This document shows positions 1 to 8,639 of a stretch of 8,718 nt of DNA, one piece after another. This DNA is from a virus (lineage: Duplodnaviria > Heunggongvirae > Uroviricota > Caudoviricetes): IMG/VR virus record IMGVR_UViG_2681813271_000005. One strand, 5' to 3'. The translations under genes and the position numbers were made by a program. Within the stretch, counting starts at the first letter, position 1; each line of letters opens with the position of its first letter. The notes beneath the pieces are model-generated. The model was given only the letters and a program-made list of their open reading frames with translations. It ran no database searches and was not told the origin of the DNA.

Positions 1-43
1 GGTTTTTAAATAAATAAAGAAAGAAGATATTCGAGGTAACAAA

Positions 44-1224: not shown

Positions 1225-4923
<3,699 letters not shown>

Positions 4924-5080
4924 TAAATAATTCAGGGATTATTAACTGTAACCTCATTTCAAAAGGATACATAAATGAAATCTAATGAACGTACTTTCAA
5001 TAGTACCAGTACTAACCCATTCAGTATTAGCGGAAAAGAAACAATTGGAATGAAGAAAAGGATTTACAGGAGTAAGAGCT

Positions 5081-6036: not shown

Positions 6037-6078
6037 ACAATAACAATAACAATAACAATAACAATAACAATAACAACA
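6037..6078. repeat. Hexanucleotide tandem repeat (ACAATA)x6 plus one imperfect unit (ACAACA)
   Basis: Read directly from the sequence: six perfect ACAATA units at 6037-6072 and ACAACA at 6073-6078. It sits between the stop of the 5379-6035 gene and the AAGGGA ribosome-binding site of the 6092 gene. Confidence 0.9.
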
Positions 6079-6091
6079 AAGGGATTTCAGT

Positions 6092-6364
6092 ATGGATATC
6101 GGTGCTATTTTAGCTCTTGTTATTTCTGGATGCGTATTCCTTTATACTATCTTTAGAGATAATACAAAGGATACGAATGATCTATTAACTCGCGTTGCTA
6201 CTCTTGAAACTACCATTGCTGTACTGGAAAGTAGTATTTCCCGTATTGAGGATGATCAGGATAAGATGAGAGATACACTAAGTAAACTGGAAACACAAAT
6301 CCATGAACTTGATGTTAAGATTGAAAGGATTATTGCAATTCTTCAGCAGAAACAACGACCATAA
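6092..6364 (+). CDS. Small membrane-anchored coiled-coil protein (one N-terminal TM helix); candidate lysis regulator, spanin-like or superinfection-exclusion protein
   Basis: 90-aa ORF with AAGGGA (6079-6084) 7 nt upstream. The N-terminus IGAILALVISGCVFLYTIF is a hydrophobic helix of about 20 aa. The rest is charged with heptad-like periodicity (LETTIAVLESSISRIEDDQDKMRDTLSKLETQIHELDVKIERIIAILQ). It ends at the bidirectional terminator and is convergent with the lysozyme gene. Confidence 0.55.
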   Translation: MDIGAILALVISGCVFLYTIFRDNTKDTNDLLTRVATLETTIAVLESSISRIEDDQDKMRDTLSKLETQIHELDVKIERIIAILQQKQRP

Positions 6365-6365
6365 A

Positions 6366-6402
6366 AAAAGGCATAGTATGTCATTCGTACTATGCCTTTT
6401 CT
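6366..6402. terminator. Bidirectional rho-independent terminator
   Basis: Perfect 9-bp stem GGCATAGTA (6370-6378) / TACTATGCC (6388-6396) with a 9-nt loop. An A-run (6363-6369) lies upstream and a T-rich tract (6397-6415) downstream, so it works on both strands. It sits between convergent genes, with the - strand stop codon at 6403-6405. Confidence 0.8.
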
Positions 6403-6852
6403 TTATTTGTTTTTAAGTACTGCAATCATGGAATTCACACGGTTTGGTGTCTGCCTGTACCATAGAGAACACTTAGCCTGTTTAATTGCTTCAAGGTAAT
6501 CATGTGCTTTCAGGGCTGCTAACATCTTACGGAATTTCTTCACCCCGCCAATACCTAACTGGAAGGTCATGATAATAATAAAATCATTCCAGTCATCGGG
6601 AAGATTTAACCCTAATGTCTGTACCTGCATAATTGTTTTGGCTAAATCGCGAGATAGTAACTTGTCTGCTTCGCTTTCAGTAATGCCAGTACTAAAATCT
6701 TCTCCCGCCTGAATTAAGTGACCATATCCAATAGTACTACATCCTAAACTATCAGCATATGGATAGAATTTCCCATTTCTGAAGTACTTCAAATTTGCCT
6801 GATACTCTTTAGTACCTTCATATTCTTTTAATCGTGTTTTTAAATCGCTCAT
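6403..6852 (-). CDS. Endolysin, T4 lysozyme-like (glycoside hydrolase family 24 muramidase)
   Basis: 149-aa ORF. The catalytic signature E12-G ... YAD34SLGCST40IGYGHL matches the T4 lysozyme Glu/Asp/Thr triad and the TIGxGH motif. The C-terminal SLWYRQTPNRVNSMI closely matches T4 lysozyme SRWYNQTPNRAKRVI, and MTFQLGIGGV matches MVFQMGETGV. No N-terminal hydrophobic (SAR) segment. Confidence 0.9.
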   Translation of the reverse strand: MSDLKTRLKEYEGTKEYQANLKYFRNGKFYPYADSLGCSTIGYGHLIQAGEDFSTGITESEADKLLSRDLAKTIMQVQTLGLNLPDDWNDFIIIMTFQLGIGGVKKFRKMLAALKAHDYLEAIKQAKCSLWYRQTPNRVNSMIAVLKNK

Positions 6853-6862
6853 TTACTAAATA

Positions 6863-6881
6863 CCTATAATGAATTTATAGG
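6863..6881. promoter_or_regulatory. Perfect palindrome CCTATAA-N5-TTATAGG in the 36-bp divergent intergenic region; contains a TATAAT -10-like hexamer (6865-6870); candidate operator or divergent promoter core
   Basis: Read directly: CCTATAA (6863-6869) and TTATAGG (6875-6881) are reverse complements. TATAAT sits 18 nt upstream of the ATG at 6889, with AGGA (6879-6882) as ribosome-binding site. On the - strand, TATAAA (complement of 6872-6877) lies upstream of the lysozyme start. Confidence 0.35.
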
Positions 6882-6888
6882 AATATTT

Positions 6889-7323
6889 ATGATGAGTGAA
6901 TGGAAATACTCGGATGATTGGAGCGAGGAGGAAATGTTATCCGGTGAATATGCTGGTTTCGTTTATATCTTTCAGTTTGAGGATGGTTCTAATTATGTCG
7001 GTGCTAAGCAAATCTATCAGCGGGTTAAGGATGCGAGAAAGCTAAAGCCCACTTCAAAGGAAAATGGCTGGCGTGAGTACCTCAGTAGTTCCAATGTCGT
7101 TAAAAACAAAATTGAAAATGGTGAACAGTACTCAAAAACGATTCTATGGTGCTTCGCAACTATGCGAGAGGTAATGATTGTAGAGGCAATACTGATCCTT
7201 CATCAGATGCTTAAACCGGAATGTTTGAATCTGGCAATGATGAGTAAGATTAGATCACCAAATGCAAAGGATAAAAAAAGACTACTCGGAATAGTACAGG
7301 AACTATTGGAGTACTTGAATTGA
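6889..7323 (+). CDS. GIY-YIG family nuclease, short free-standing catalytic domain (homing-endonuclease-like)
   Basis: 144-aa ORF. AGFVYIFQFEDGSNYVGAKQIYQRVKDAR matches the GIY-(10-11 aa)-YVG motif plus the conserved Arg, as in I-TevI SGIYQIKNTLNNKVYVGSAKDFEKRWKRH. A downstream MREVMIVEAI is consistent with the conserved catalytic Glu helix. There is no long C-terminal DNA-binding domain. Confidence 0.7.
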   Translation: MMSEWKYSDDWSEEEMLSGEYAGFVYIFQFEDGSNYVGAKQIYQRVKDARKLKPTSKENGWREYLSSSNVVKNKIENGEQYSKTILWCFATMREVMIVEAILILHQMLKPECLNLAMMSKIRSPNAKDKKRLLGIVQELLEYLN

Positions 7324-7332
7324 GGTAAATAT

Positions 7333-7911
7333 ATGGCAAGTGGAATAAATGGGATTGGTAGTATAAGGAACTATATACAAACGCAGGGAGTTAGATTAAA
7401 TAATCAATTCCAGAATGAAATAATTAAACGTTCCAAGCTACTATCCCAAAGAATGCAGGGTGATTTGAATAATAGCGTTGACCGTGGGGCAGTGGGCTTT
7501 ACTCAACGTTCCATCCTTTTCTTCTATAGAAAGGTTGGGAGAAATTCAGTTACATCGACCATCATGGTTAAAGATATTCAGGCTAAGTACCTTTATCAAG
7601 TACTGGTACAGCCAAAGGCAATTGATAAGTTTATACCTACTTCATCTACAAGATTAACTAAGCAGGGCAACATTTCAGGACTGAAAAAGAATCTTTTAAG
7701 TGAACGATATAAGGTAGTGAAGGGTAAGAATGGTAAAGAACGATTAATTGATACCGCAAAGAAAGATACCAAGAAGAAAACCAAACGTGTAATTGGCTTA
7801 CGTGAGAAGAAACAACGTCGCCTTATCTATGACTTCTATAAGGAAGCCAATGATGGTGTAAGGGTAATTATGAGCGGTATTCAGGGAACATTCAGGATAA
7901 GTAGACAATGA
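7333..7911 (+). CDS. Hypothetical protein with a strongly basic Lys/Arg-rich C-terminal region; possible nucleic-acid-binding protein
   Basis: 192-aa ORF with GAGGT (7322-7326) 6 nt before the ATG. Lys/Arg-rich tract KGKNGKERLIDTAKKDTKKKTKRVIGLREKKQRR. The stop overlaps the next start (ATGA at 7908). Confidence 0.5.
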   Translation: MASGINGIGSIRNYIQTQGVRLNNQFQNEIIKRSKLLSQRMQGDLNNSVDRGAVGFTQRSILFFYRKVGRNSVTSTIMVKDIQAKYLYQVLVQPKAIDKFIPTSSTRLTKQGNISGLKKNLLSERYKVVKGKNGKERLIDTAKKDTKKKTKRVIGLREKKQRRLIYDFYKEANDGVRVIMSGIQGTFRISRQ

Positions 7912-8219
7912 ATTTTGAGCAACATTATGGTGATTTAATAAGCAAGATTAAGCTAAATGGCATGACACCAGATGGTAATAGTATGCCAATTAACAAATGT
8001 TTTCTTGATAAGAAATTTCAAAAGGTCGTTAAGAAAAGTAATTATCAGATTGATAGCTATATGAACGTTATTTATGAGAAGAAGAAAGATTTCAAAGTTG
8101 GTGAAGTACTTGAATGGGAATTACAGGGTGAAAAGATGCCTGTATTTCTAATTGAGAGTAAAAAGCTCTTTGTGAAGGGTAAACATTTTTGGGTATATGC
8201 CGTGGGGATTATTGAATGA
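7908..8219 (+). CDS. Hypothetical protein
   Basis: 103-aa ORF coupled by ATGA overlaps to the upstream gene (7908) and the downstream gene (8216). No recognisable motif. Confidence 0.45.
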   Translation: MNFEQHYGDLISKIKLNGMTPDGNSMPINKCFLDKKFQKVVKKSNYQIDSYMNVIYEKKKDFKVGEVLEWELQGEKMPVFLIESKKLFVKGKHFWVYAVGIIE

Positions 8220-8249
8220 TTAGTATATTGATTGAGTTTCTGAAGTCAG
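8216..8249 (+). CDS. 5' end of a hypothetical gene, truncated by the assembly gap
   Basis: ATG at 8216 overlaps the previous stop (ATGA). Only 11 codons (MISILIEFLKS) are readable before the N-run; the rest of the tracked ORF is X. Confidence 0.25.
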
Positions 8250-8565
8250 NNNNNNNNNNNNNNNNNNNNNNNNNNNNNNNNNNNNNNNNNNNNNNNNNNN
8301 NNNNNNNNNNNNNNNNNNNNNNNNNNNNNNNNNNNNNNNNNNNNNNNNNNNNNNNNNNNNNNNNNNNNNNNNNNNNNNNNNNNNNNNNNNNNNNNNNNNN
8401 NNNNNNNNNNNNNNNNNNNNNNNNNNNNNNNNNNNNNNNNNNNNNNNNNNNNNNNNNNNNNNNNNNNNNNNNNNNNNNNNNNNNNNNNNNNNNNNNNNNN
8501 NNNNNNNNNNNNNNNNNNNNNNNNNNNNNNNNNNNNNNNNNNNNNNNNNNNNNNNNNNNNNNNNN
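8250..8565. other. Assembly gap (run of N)
   Basis: 316 consecutive N characters read directly from the sequence. Its true length and content are unknown. Confidence 0.99.
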
Positions 8566-8639
8566 TTGGTGGAAGCTGAAAGATTTTTCCTTTAATATGT
8601 GTTTTGAGTTAATAAAATAGCAATCTAAGGATTTGATTT

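What the first reader, a model, noticed from the sequence alone, without database searches (positions are those of the whole stretch)
6853..6888. Palindrome CCTATAA-N5-TTATAGG spanning the whole core of a 36-bp divergent promoter region
The only sequence between the divergent lysozyme and GIY-YIG starts is built around a perfect 7-bp inverted repeat with a 5-bp spacer, which also supplies a TATAAT -10 hexamer for the + strand and a TATAAA on the - strand. This symmetry suggests a dimeric regulator binding site that could control both transcripts, or overlapping back-to-back promoters.
Basis: seen in the sequence. Interest (0 to 1): 0.45.

Follow-up and report, generated by a model that had tools for sequence, protein, structure and literature searches.

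The report
Shared hairpin controlling two divergent phage genes
The 7-bp palindrome is real, but it is only the tip of a longer conserved inverted repeat between a prophage lysozyme gene and a nuclease gene, which most likely works like the phage T4 lysozyme leader: a promoter-like TAAATA motif sits in one arm of a hairpin that hides the ribosome-binding site held in the other arm.

Summary
The palindrome CCTATAA-tgaat-TTATAGG is at 6863-6881, in the 36 bp between the lysozyme and GIY-YIG starts. On its own it is close to chance (P about 0.06). It is the apex of a longer imperfect inverted repeat, 6846-6898, that runs from start codon to start codon.

The window is a Shigella sonnei prophage. 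About 28 diverged relatives keep the divergent gene pair and the repeat. In all of them TAAATA and TATTTA are invariant, while the inner arms and the loop length (5-16 nt) vary, and the arms vary together. The GG of each arm is the Shine-Dalgarno of the outward gene. Each 5' arm carries xxTAAATA, a variant of the T4 late-promoter word TATAAATA.

In relatives, exact TATAAATA lies 26-44 nt upstream of operon-first genes, has no -35 partner, and never occurs on the antisense strand. The same design recurs before other genes in the family. The T4 gene e leader has this design and the same 10-mer, ATAAATACCT.

Best reading: two facing T4-late-type promoters fused with two hairpins that hide the ribosome-binding sites. 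A fixed-geometry dimeric-regulator operator is not supported. No gp55 homologue was found, and no transcript ends are mapped.

The parts
6863..6881 (.). The reported perfect palindrome CCTATAA-tgaat-TTATAGG. It is the apical helix and loop of the longer inverted repeat.
   Evidence: It folds alone at only -5.5 kcal/mol (+) and -4.6 kcal/mol (-). Its sequence and loop length are not conserved in relatives.
6846..6898 (.). Extended imperfect inverted repeat spanning both start codons. As RNA of either strand it forms a hairpin whose 3' arm holds the Shine-Dalgarno and the AUG of the downstream gene.
   Evidence: -18 kcal/mol, z -6.8 on +; -12 kcal/mol, z -5.3 on -. The same hairpin forms in 17 IMG/VR relatives. 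In the 11 of the GTDB genome loci that keep the divergent neighbour it was seen by reading the sequences and by covariance-model matches; those were not folded.
6855..6862 (+). ACTAAATA, a T4-late-promoter-like word (6 of 8 to TATAAATA; TAAATA invariant in the family). It lies 34 nt before the GIY-YIG ATG. It is the inferred promoter of the GIY-YIG operon and also the spacer between the lysozyme Shine-Dalgarno and its ATG on the other strand.
   Evidence: Relatives have TATAAATA, AATAAATA or CATAAATA here.
6884..6891 (-). CATAAATA (7 of 8 to TATAAATA), 39 nt before the lysozyme ATG. It is the inferred lysozyme promoter. Its complement is the spacer plus ATG of the GIY-YIG gene.
   Evidence: It is exact TATAAATA in L018, L021, L025, L031, L032, L040, L078 and L082.
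6879..6882 (+). AGGA, the Shine-Dalgarno of the GIY-YIG gene, inside the right arm of the palindrome.
   Evidence: 6 nt to the ATG at 6889 and 9 nt to the ATG at 6892. Relatives have TAGG, AAGG, GAGG or GGAG at this place.
6862..6866 (-). TAGGT, the Shine-Dalgarno of the lysozyme gene, inside the left arm of the palindrome.
   Evidence: AGG lies 10 nt before the ATG. Conserved as AGGT, AAGGT or GAGGT in relatives.
6403..6852 (-). Lysozyme gene (149 aa, GH24, T4 e-like; 30% identical to T4 e).
6889..7323 (+). SegE-like GIY-YIG nuclease gene (144 aa). It is the first gene of a conserved operon (GIY-YIG, 192 aa, 103 aa, and a holin-like gene of about 96 aa).
6366..6400 (.). Bidirectional intrinsic terminator between the end of the rightward late operon and the 3' end of the lysozyme gene. 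It makes the lysozyme gene a one-gene unit and means the GIY-YIG operon needs its own promoter.
   Evidence: 15-pair stem followed by a T run; I1. The - strand also has a T run.
9..16 (+). A second copy of the promoter-like word (AATAAATA), 28 nt before the distal-tail-protein ATG at 44. Six relatives have exact TATAAATA at the homologous place.

Best explanation
The palindrome is the top of a compact, two-way expression-control element, not a protein operator. The 36-bp spacer plus the first codons of both genes form one inverted repeat (6846-6898).

Each arm does two jobs. On one strand it carries a -10-only promoter word of the T4 late type: ACTAAATA at 6855-6862 for the GIY-YIG operon, and CATAAATA at 6891 down to 6884 for the lysozyme gene. 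On the other strand the same bases are the Shine-Dalgarno (the GG of the palindrome) and the A/U-rich spacer of the gene that points outward.

Inferred mechanism. RNA polymerase starting a few bases downstream of either word begins inside the repeat, at about 6868-6870 on + and about 6876-6878 on -. That RNA lacks the 5' arm, so its ribosome-binding site is free. Any longer RNA that reads in from outside contains both arms and folds a hairpin that buries the Shine-Dalgarno and the AUG, so lysozyme and the nuclease are not made from it. On the - strand such RNA could come from oppositely oriented accessory genes at the prophage right end that may be expressed in the lysogen. On the + strand it could come from read-through of the terminator at 6366-6400. 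The two promoters face each other and overlap, so they should also compete for polymerase.

Shown here: the anatomy; conservation with co-varying arms; recurrence of the design at other genes of the family; and the behaviour of TATAAATA as a footprinted, strand-specific word upstream of genes. Inferred by analogy with T4 gene e, I-TevI, segB and mobE: the start sites, the translational block, and the factor that reads the word.
For: (1) Anatomy. The Shine-Dalgarno and AUG of each gene lie in the 3' arm, and xxTAAATA lies in the 5' arm, on both strands.

(2) Conservation. About 28 distinct relatives, with lysozyme 54-94% identical, keep the divergent pair and a start-to-start hairpin. They come from IMG/VR contigs and from prophages in Pseudescherichia, Phytobacter, Pluralibacter, Scandinavium, Enterobacter, Pseudocitrobacter, Buttiauxella, Kluyvera and an Escherichia species. 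L041 has perfect 15-bp arms.

(3) Co-variation. The inner arms change together: CCTATA/TATAGG, CCTTA/TAAGG, CCTCA/TGAGG, TCCATA/TATGGA, TTCC/GGAA. On the model-fitted alignment 87.9% of cells pair, against 39-52% when partners are slid. Six pairs change on both sides, with 49 compensatory cells, and 0 of 500 shuffles reach this. The model finds the element out of sample in the GTDB loci, and only at that spot.

(4) Recurrence without a divergent neighbour. The same design stands before unrelated genes whose upstream neighbour is co-oriented, so the overlap of two genes' signals cannot explain it. Examples: L057 3805 TATAAATATCCTCATA-ctaacca-TATGAGGATATTTTTTATG; L057 near 4075; L052 5027; L070 2010; L072 5338; and the methyltransferase gene (L022, and uvig240 position 33185).

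(5) Evidence for the promoter word. In 232 kb of family loci TATAAATA occurs 26 times on the gene strand and 0 times on the other, one of the two most asymmetric A/T-only 8-mers. Nine of the 26 lie in the 2% of positions that are non-coding and 15-60 nt before a start codon (P about 1e-9, not corrected for homology between loci). The word is kept before the terminase small-subunit gene, the distal-tail-protein gene and the 90-aa gene while its flanks diverge, with no -35.

(6) Precedent. The T4/RB55 gene e leader reads TTATAAATACCTTCTATAAATACTTAGGAGGTATTATG and folds the same way. Our model hits it weakly (25.5 bits, E 0.16). The mechanism is documented for T4 e, soc, 49 and I-TevI (PMC3014915, section 29) and for I-TevI to I-TevIII, segB and mobE (PMC2988022, section 12). 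T4 late promoters are -10-like elements with no -35 (PMC7892883).
Against: No transcript 5' ends, RNA-seq or translation data were available, so every functional step is inferred.

The S. sonnei copies are only 7/8 and 6/8 matches to TATAAATA.

No homologue of the T4 late sigma gp55 was found in the family (tblastn, nothing better than E 3.8). Pfam and PHROGs also give no sigma-like protein among the genes tested. What reads the word is therefore unknown.

The six outer pairs (TAAATA/TATTTA) never vary. They give no covariation evidence, and two inverted copies of one promoter/RBS module explain them equally well.

The shuffle test ignores relatedness, the alignment was fitted to the structure, and each locus contributes both strands.

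In this divergent layout, long read-in RNAs would have to be antisense to the neighbouring gene. Their existence is plausible but unproven.

The stems are A/U-rich and weak (core helix about -5 kcal/mol).
Confidence: 0.55

Rival explanations
1. The symmetry is a by-product. Two identical promoter-plus-RBS modules are packed head to head, so each TAAATA is inevitably the complement of the other gene's TATTTA spacer. The resulting inverted repeat has no function of its own as RNA structure.
For: The six outer pairs are invariant rather than co-varying. Some relatives break the inner pairing (L029, L073, L078). L085 keeps GATAAATA before the lysozyme gene with no hairpin.
Against: Nothing in this model requires the two Shine-Dalgarno variants to be the same in one genome, yet they usually are: UAGG/UAGG, AAGG/AAGG, GAGG/GAGG. 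The hairpin design also recurs before genes that have no divergent neighbour. In L027, L028, L074, L076 and L080 the repeat sits beside the nuclease gene while the lysozyme Shine-Dalgarno lies outside it.
Confidence: 0.2
2. Ordinary overlapping sigma-70 promoters use the core hexamers the first reader named: TATAAT at 6865-6870 for the + strand and TATAAA (6879 to 6874) for the - strand.
For: A perfect TATAAT is present in S. sonnei. The A+T-rich centre offers some -10-like hexamer in every relative.
Against: There is no -35 or TG extension, and the scan does not call a promoter here on either strand. The hexamers are not conserved in sequence or position, whereas the flanking TAAATA is invariant. 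Starts from these hexamers would leave leaders that barely include the Shine-Dalgarno.
Confidence: 0.08
3. The palindrome is an operator for a dimeric regulator. The regulator could be the GIY-YIG protein repressing itself, as I-TevI does at its own late promoter. It would shut both promoters.
For: The repeat is perfectly two-fold symmetric and overlaps both putative promoters. I-TevI binds an operator that overlaps its late promoter (PMC2988022, section 10).
Against: Half-site sequence and spacing both vary among relatives, with loops of 5-16 nt. There is no second copy in the prophage. No helix-turn-helix regulator was found among the annotated genes.
Confidence: 0.07
4. The element acts at the DNA level. 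The repeat would extrude as a cruciform or single-strand hairpin that serves as a nuclease or nicking site, or as an origin, for the adjacent conserved GIY-YIG enzyme.
For: The GIY-YIG gene is a core gene of the family and always lies next to the repeat. No replication genes were recognised in the family.
Against: The same hairpin design precedes unrelated genes far from the nuclease gene, and the Shine-Dalgarno is always in the 3' arm. G.U-type pairs are tolerated (L027, L028, L083), which fits RNA pairing rather than DNA pairing. There is no precedent for this role.
Confidence: 0.03

Closest known systems
Phage T4 gene e (lysozyme) leader: a hairpin that sequesters the ribosome-binding site, with late promoters TATAAATA in its 5' strand (McPheeters et al. 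1986, as reviewed in PMC3014915, section 29)
   Same: The downstream gene is a T4 e-type lysozyme. The 5' arm is ATAAATACC..., and the 3' arm is ..GG + TATT(T)AT + ATG. The 10-mer ATAAATACCT is shared with relatives. The promoter word sits inside the arm, so transcripts started there lack the inhibitory strand.
   Different: The host element is a temperate, siphovirus-like prophage of about 35 kb with a serine integrase and a lambda-type terminase, not a T4-like myovirus. No gp55 was detected. The upstream neighbour is divergent, not co-oriented. The lysozyme is only 30% identical to T4 e, so common descent of the leader is not shown.
Hairpin and late-promoter control of T4-family homing endonuclease genes (I-TevI, I-TevII, I-TevIII, segB, mobE; PMC2988022, section 12)
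   Same: The second gene is a SegE-like GIY-YIG nuclease whose Shine-Dalgarno and AUG lie in the 3' arm, with a late-promoter-like word in the 5' arm.
   Different: Here the nuclease gene is a fixed core gene of the family (in 43 loci) rather than a sporadic mobile insertion. It shares one palindromic element with the lysozyme gene.
Overlapping or bidirectional divergent bacterial promoters that exploit the symmetry of the -10 element (own knowledge: Warman et al. 2021, Nature Microbiology; not checked here)
   Same: Two promoters on opposite strands occupy the same few tens of base pairs, and sequence symmetry is used.
   Different: In that class two sigma-70 -10 hexamers overlap back to back and the starts are about 18 bp apart, pointing outward. 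Here the conserved words are 21 bp apart edge to edge and face each other, the inferred starts cross by a few bases, and the words are not sigma-70 -10 hexamers.
Palindromic operators of dimeric repressors, and the I-TevI autorepression operator (PMC2988022, section 10)
   Same: Two-fold symmetry over a promoter region.
   Different: The half-site sequence and spacing are not conserved, there is a single copy, and no cognate regulator was found.

Membership tests
T4 gene e-type translational-control hairpin with embedded late promoter | [quoted passage not shown] | tested here: met
   Folds of both strands of the window and of 17 relatives. AGGA at 6879-6882 and the ATG at 6889 lie in the + strand 3' arm. 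AGGT lies in the - strand 3' arm and the lysozyme ATG sits at its base.
T4 gene e-type translational-control hairpin with embedded late promoter | The late-promoter word TATAAATA lies in, or overlaps, the 5' strand of the stem | tested here: inconclusive
   S. sonnei has CATAAATA (7/8) and ACTAAATA (6/8). At least eight relatives have exact TATAAATA on the lysozyme side. TAAATA is invariant in 53 aligned rows.
T4 gene e-type translational-control hairpin with embedded late promoter | The structure is under selection (arms co-vary) | tested here: met
   6 pairs with changes on both sides, 49 compensatory cells, 0 of 500 shuffles reach this, and slid controls pair at 39-52% against 87.9%. Caveats: the alignment was fitted to the model, the sequences are related, and both strands of each locus are included.
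T4 gene e-type translational-control hairpin with embedded late promoter | Short transcripts start inside the stem, and longer read-in transcripts contain the whole stem and are poorly translated | not testable with these tools
   No transcript-end or expression data were available. This needs 5' end mapping and leader fusions.
T4-type late transcription (gp55-dependent, -10-only promoters) | The promoter is a -10-like TATAAATA with no conserved -35, placed before late genes | tested here: met
   In relatives, exact TATAAATA lies 26-44 nt before the terminase small-subunit, distal-tail-protein and 90-aa genes, the flanks diverge, and there is no -35. Strand counts are 26:0 and the enrichment before starts has P about 1e-9.
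T4-type late transcription (gp55-dependent, -10-only promoters) | The phage encodes a gp55-family sigma (and gp33) | tested here: not met
   tblastn of T4-type (RB55) gp55 against 23 family loci gives nothing better than E 3.8. Pfam and PHROGs scans of the non-structural proteins show no sigma-like hits. gp33 was not searched. Remote homologues cannot be excluded.
Operator of a dimeric DNA-binding regulator | Half-site sequence and centre-to-centre spacing are conserved among relatives, and there are usually further copies in the genome | tested here: not met
   Half-sites vary and loops range from 5 to 16 nt. There is a single copy in the window, in about 30 kb of the prophage and in flanking DNA.
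Sigma-70 promoter pair | -35 and -10 hexamers with 16-18 bp spacing, conserved | tested here: not met
   The scan gives no site in 6853-6888 on either strand. The core hexamers are not conserved.
Intrinsic terminator | G+C-rich stem followed by a U run | tested here: not met
   The terminator scan does not call it. The stem is A/U-rich with only two to three G-C pairs.
Any curated Rfam family | Match to a covariance model | tested here: not met
   An E-value-mode scan of 6300-7400 gives no hit over the repeat.

The most novel reading that the evidence does not exclude
An uncultured, widespread family of temperate siphovirus-like prophages of Enterobacterales runs its genes on T4-late-type, -10-only TATAAATA promoters and T4 gene e-type hairpins that hide the ribosome-binding site, yet has no recognisable gp55. 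The family is about 35 kb, about 38% G+C, and has a serine integrase and a lambda-type terminase. This would imply either an unrecognised late specificity factor or dependence on the late machinery of a co-infecting T4-like phage. In this family two such promoter-hairpin modules have fused into a single palindrome that serves two divergent genes at once.
Probability: 0.3. Interest if true: 0.7.

Novelty: new variant of a known kind. Interest (0 to 1): 0.5.

Why it matters
If correct, a control logic regarded as a T4-family speciality is used by an unrelated temperate phage lineage, common as prophages in Shigella, Enterobacter, Klebsiella-group and other enteric genomes. That logic has two parts: late promoters consisting only of a -10-like word, and leader hairpins that let only promoter-proximal transcripts be translated.

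Here it appears in a more economical, two-way form. It would explain how a prophage keeps a lysozyme and a nuclease silent despite read-through transcription. It also raises a concrete, testable question: which factor reads TATAAATA in these phages?

In practical terms, annotators should not read such start-to-start palindromes as operators.

Tried and rejected
Nucleotide similarity. Megablast of the window against 50,697 phage records found nothing. Megablast of 6050-7950 against 5,426 complete E. coli genomes also found nothing. The closest isolated phages have capsid identity of 31% or less.

Sigma-70 scan. It gave no promoter in the intergenic region, and 20 sites in the window against 29.8 expected, so it carries no signal.

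Rfam. No family matches the repeat.

Search for the factor that reads TATAAATA. tblastn with gp55 was negative. The conserved 192-aa protein next to the nuclease gene has only 'hypothetical' homologues. Its AlphaFold model is mediocre (pLDDT 65.5, pTM 0.51), and Foldseek against the PDB gave nothing below E = 1, so it stays uninformative. The small genes before the terminase small-subunit gene (73, 146 and 121 aa) are not conserved in the family and look like membrane or secreted accessory genes.

A strict ungapped stem scan anchored on TAAATA missed most cases because of bulges. A fold-based scan replaced it.

IMG/VR scan for ATAAATACC-N(4-30)-GGTATTTAT. It returned more than 120 hits. Of the 80 read, 13 are further lysozyme/GIY-YIG pairs of this family and 43 have no adjacent start codon. 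A hit count of this order is about what my own rough composition estimate predicts by chance. The word pair alone is therefore not diagnostic.

RaK2, whose lysozyme is the best phage hit (46%), has TATAAATA 40 nt upstream but no hairpin. The hairpin does not simply travel with the lysozyme lineage.

McPheeters 1986 (PMC311593) is not held. The T4 facts are cited from two reviews.

Full report
OBSERVATION

The window reads catTTACTAAATACCTATAATGAATTTATAGGAATATTTatg across 6850-6891.
- The - strand lysozyme ORF (6403-6852, PF00959) and the + strand SegE-like GIY-YIG ORF (6889-7323, PF19835) are separated by 36 bp.
- The perfect palindrome CCTATAA-N5-TTATAGG is at 6863-6881. It is unique in the window even with 2 mismatches allowed.
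- A 7-bp perfect inverted repeat is not rare in so A+T-rich a 36-mer: 6.2% of shuffles have one. The window has 2 such repeats against 4.1 +/- 2.4 expected.
- The symmetry runs much further, however. Positions 6846-6898 fold as a bulged hairpin of -18 kcal/mol on the + strand (z -6.8) and -12 kcal/mol on the - strand (z -5.3).

WHERE THE WINDOW COMES FROM

- The lysozyme and the distal tail protein are encoded, residue for residue, in hundreds of Shigella sonnei assemblies, among them strain 53G (HE616528.1). They lie in a prophage beside mipA, yeaE and gapA.
- The 36-bp region is identical in all 14 S. sonnei loci fetched. The palindrome has no second copy in about 30 kb of the prophage or in the flanking chromosome.
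- There is no nucleotide match among 50,697 phage records or 5,426 complete E. coli genomes. No isolated phage has a capsid more than 31% identical.
- I rebuilt a 35.6-kb relative, IMG/VR UViG_3300048924_000240, called uvig240 here, from four loci. It shows the layout: serine integrase, small genes, an HNH nuclease, lambda-type small and large terminase, portal, protease-capsid fusion, tail genes, a J-like fibre, lysis genes, then lysozyme facing GIY-YIG, followed by conserved genes of 192, 103 and 96 aa.
- In the window a strong bidirectional terminator (6366-6400) separates the rightward late operon from the 3' end of the lysozyme gene. The lysozyme gene is therefore a one-gene unit, and the GIY-YIG operon needs its own promoter.

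COMPARATIVE ANATOMY

Protein-guided scans gave about 17 distinct IMG/VR relatives (lysozyme 54-94% identical). They also gave 11 prophages in type genomes of Pseudescherichia, Phytobacter, Pluralibacter, Scandinavium, Enterobacter, Pseudocitrobacter, Buttiauxella, Kluyvera and an Escherichia species. All keep the divergent pair.

Read from the lysozyme CAT to the nuclease ATG, they all have the form CAT-(0-4 nt)-xxTAAATA-(0-2)-CC...[A+T-rich, 5-16 nt]...GG-(0-2)-TATTTAxx-(0-4 nt)-ATG. Three points follow.

1. The palindrome core is not conserved in sequence or in loop length. The core hexamers TATAAT and TATAAA are lost in most relatives.
2. The GG of each arm is the Shine-Dalgarno of the outward gene (UAGG, AAGG, GAGG or GGAG). 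TATTTA is the spacer before its start codon.
3. The arms stay complementary while they change: CCTATA/TATAGG, CCTTA/TAAGG, CCTCA/TGAGG, TCCATA/TATGGA, TTCC/GGAA. L041 has 15 perfect pairs.

All 17 IMG/VR sequences fold the hairpin on both strands.

I built a covariance model from them. It finds the element in the independent genome loci, only immediately upstream of the lysozyme gene. It also hits, weakly, the T4-type gene e leader (25.5 bits, E 0.16).

On the model alignment 87.9% of cells pair, against 39-52% with slid partners. Six pairs change on both sides, giving 49 compensatory cells, and 0 of 500 shuffles reach this. The caveats are that the alignment is fitted to the structure, the sequences are related, and both strands of each locus are present. 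The six outer pairs (TAAATA/TATTTA) never vary. That says nothing about structure, but it shows sequence-specific constraint.

THE TAAATA WORD

The 5' arm on either strand ends in a variant of TATAAATA, the T4 late-promoter word. The S. sonnei forms are CATAAATA for the lysozyme gene and ACTAAATA for the nuclease gene. Many relatives have the exact word.

- Across 11 related loci (232 kb, structural genes on +), TATAAATA occurs 26 times on + and never on -. With ATAAATAA (43:0) it is the most strand-asymmetric A/T-only 8-mer.
- Nine of the 26 copies lie in non-coding DNA 15-60 nt before a start codon. Only 2% of positions meet that condition (binomial P about 1e-9, not corrected for homology between loci).
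- In uvig240 the word stands 41 nt before the first gene after the integrase gene, 26 nt before the small-terminase gene, 35 nt before the distal-tail-protein gene and 38 nt before the 90-aa lysis-region gene. There is no -35-like hexamer.
- Before the distal-tail-protein gene it is exact in six lineages whose flanks differ.

This is how T4 late promoters look: a -10-like element and nothing conserved at -35 (PMC7892883). The distances from CATAAATA and ACTAAATA to their start codons (39 and 34 nt) fall within the same range.

PRECEDENT

The T4 gene e leader, read here from phage RB55 (taxonomically T4), is TTATAAATACCTTCTATAAATACTTAGGAGGTATTATG. It folds with the Shine-Dalgarno and the AUG in the 3' strand and the promoter words in the 5' strand.

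The reviews state that early read-in transcripts form this structure and are translated about 100-fold less. Transcripts from the late promoters lack the 5' strand and are translated (PMC3014915, section 29). The same arrangement controls I-TevI, I-TevII, I-TevIII, segB and mobE (PMC2988022, section 12).

Here both genes are of exactly those kinds: a T4 e-type lysozyme (30% identical) and a Seg-like GIY-YIG nuclease.

The design is also not confined to this gene pair. In family members it precedes unrelated genes whose upstream neighbour is co-oriented. Examples are L057 3805 (TATAAATATCCTCATA-ctaacca-TATGAGGATATTTTTTATG, -13.8 kcal/mol), L057 near 4075, L052 5027, L070 2010, L072 5338 and the methyltransferase gene. 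There the 5' arm has no other job than to pair with the ribosome-binding site.

MOST LIKELY MECHANISM

These steps are inferred. Two facing promoter words start transcription inside the repeat, at about 6868-6870 rightward and about 6876-6878 leftward, assuming the T4 spacing of about 6-7 nt (own knowledge). The resulting short-leader mRNAs lack the 5' arm and are translatable.

RNAs that enter from outside carry both arms and hide the Shine-Dalgarno and the AUG. Two sources are plausible:
- oppositely oriented accessory genes at the right end of the prophage (a 151-aa gene in S. sonnei; a lipoprotein-like 83-aa gene and a 305-aa gene in uvig240);
- read-through of the terminator at 6366-6400.

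The two promoters overlap, so they should also exclude each other.

The operator idea and the choice of hexamers are not supported.

WEAK POINTS

- No transcript data were available.
- The S. sonnei words are imperfect copies of TATAAATA.
- No gp55 homologue was found.
- The conserved 192-aa neighbour gave no structural clue.
- Much of the symmetry (TAAATA/TATTTA) would arise anyway from packing two identical modules head to head. That by-product reading is the main rival (about 0.2).
- In L027, L028, L074, L076 and L080 the repeat abuts the nuclease gene and leaves the lysozyme Shine-Dalgarno outside it. G.U-type pairs there favour the nuclease-sense RNA. The nuclease side may therefore be the primary target in some lineages.

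NOVELTY

The mechanism is textbook for T4. The new aspects are two:
- its use in a temperate, siphovirus-like prophage family with no cultured member and no detectable gp55;
- the fusion of two promoter-hairpin modules into one palindrome that serves divergent genes.

I rate it a new variant of a known kind, with interest about 0.5.

Noticed in passing
window, 35 sites (92, 146, 353, 431, 638, 985... 7599, 8105); all family loci: The palindromic hexamer AGTACT is about 10-fold over-represented: 35 copies against 2.7 expected in the window, 122 against 11.5 in a 35.6-kb relative, and 7-12 fold in every family locus. It is at expectation in the flanking S. sonnei chromosome and in T4-type DNA. 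Sites fall in all three reading frames and in intergenic DNA, with a median spacing of about 207 bp, so selection acts on the DNA itself. The cause is unknown. It could be the target of the family's conserved methyltransferase or of the core GIY-YIG nuclease.
   Followed up: partly
window 6037-6076: A perfect hexanucleotide tandem repeat, (ACAATA) x 6.7, lies just upstream of the 90-aa gene. A close relative has the promoter-like TATAAATA at this place instead. Gene coordinates in different S. sonnei assemblies differ here in steps of 6 bp, so the copy number is polymorphic between strains.
   Followed up: partly
window 6366-6400: A 15-pair hairpin with T runs on both strands lies between the 90-aa gene and the 3' end of the lysozyme gene. 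It is a bidirectional intrinsic terminator.
   Followed up: yes
window 6889-7323 and relatives: The SegE-like GIY-YIG gene is a conserved core gene. It is present at the same place in 43 loci (41-100% identical) and is always followed by conserved genes of 192, 103 and about 96 aa. It does not behave like a sporadic homing endonuclease. At 144 aa it has little beyond the catalytic domain.
   Followed up: partly
window 9-16 and 4922-4929: Two further copies of AATAAATA lie on the + strand. One is 28 nt before the distal-tail-protein start, where relatives have exact TATAAATA. The other overlaps the stop codon of the 1100-aa J-like gene, ahead of the next small ORFs.
   Followed up: partly
L011 9427-9999 (just left of the window) and L001 7008-7463: Oppositely oriented accessory genes of unknown function (157/190 aa and 151 aa) are inserted in the tail module and at the right end of the prophage. 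Relatives carry different genes at these spots: a lipoprotein-like 83-aa gene and a 305-aa gene.
   Followed up: no
L002, L003, L007, L008, L013, L014 (other S. sonnei strains): Insertion sequences interrupt the 1100-aa J-like gene, the tape-measure gene or the lysis region at different places in different S. sonnei strains, so the prophage is decaying in this species. The window itself carries intact copies.
   Followed up: no
window about 8250-8570: A run of N masks most of the ORF at 8216-8620, which translates as X. G+C drops to 0.16 in that composition bin for this reason.
   Followed up: no
L117, L119, L161, L108, L166, L171 (IMG/VR): The same symmetric word pair, ATAAATACC...GGTATTTAT, also sits between unrelated divergent gene pairs in other small viral contigs. 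Most other hits of the pattern have no adjacent start codon and look like chance.
   Followed up: no
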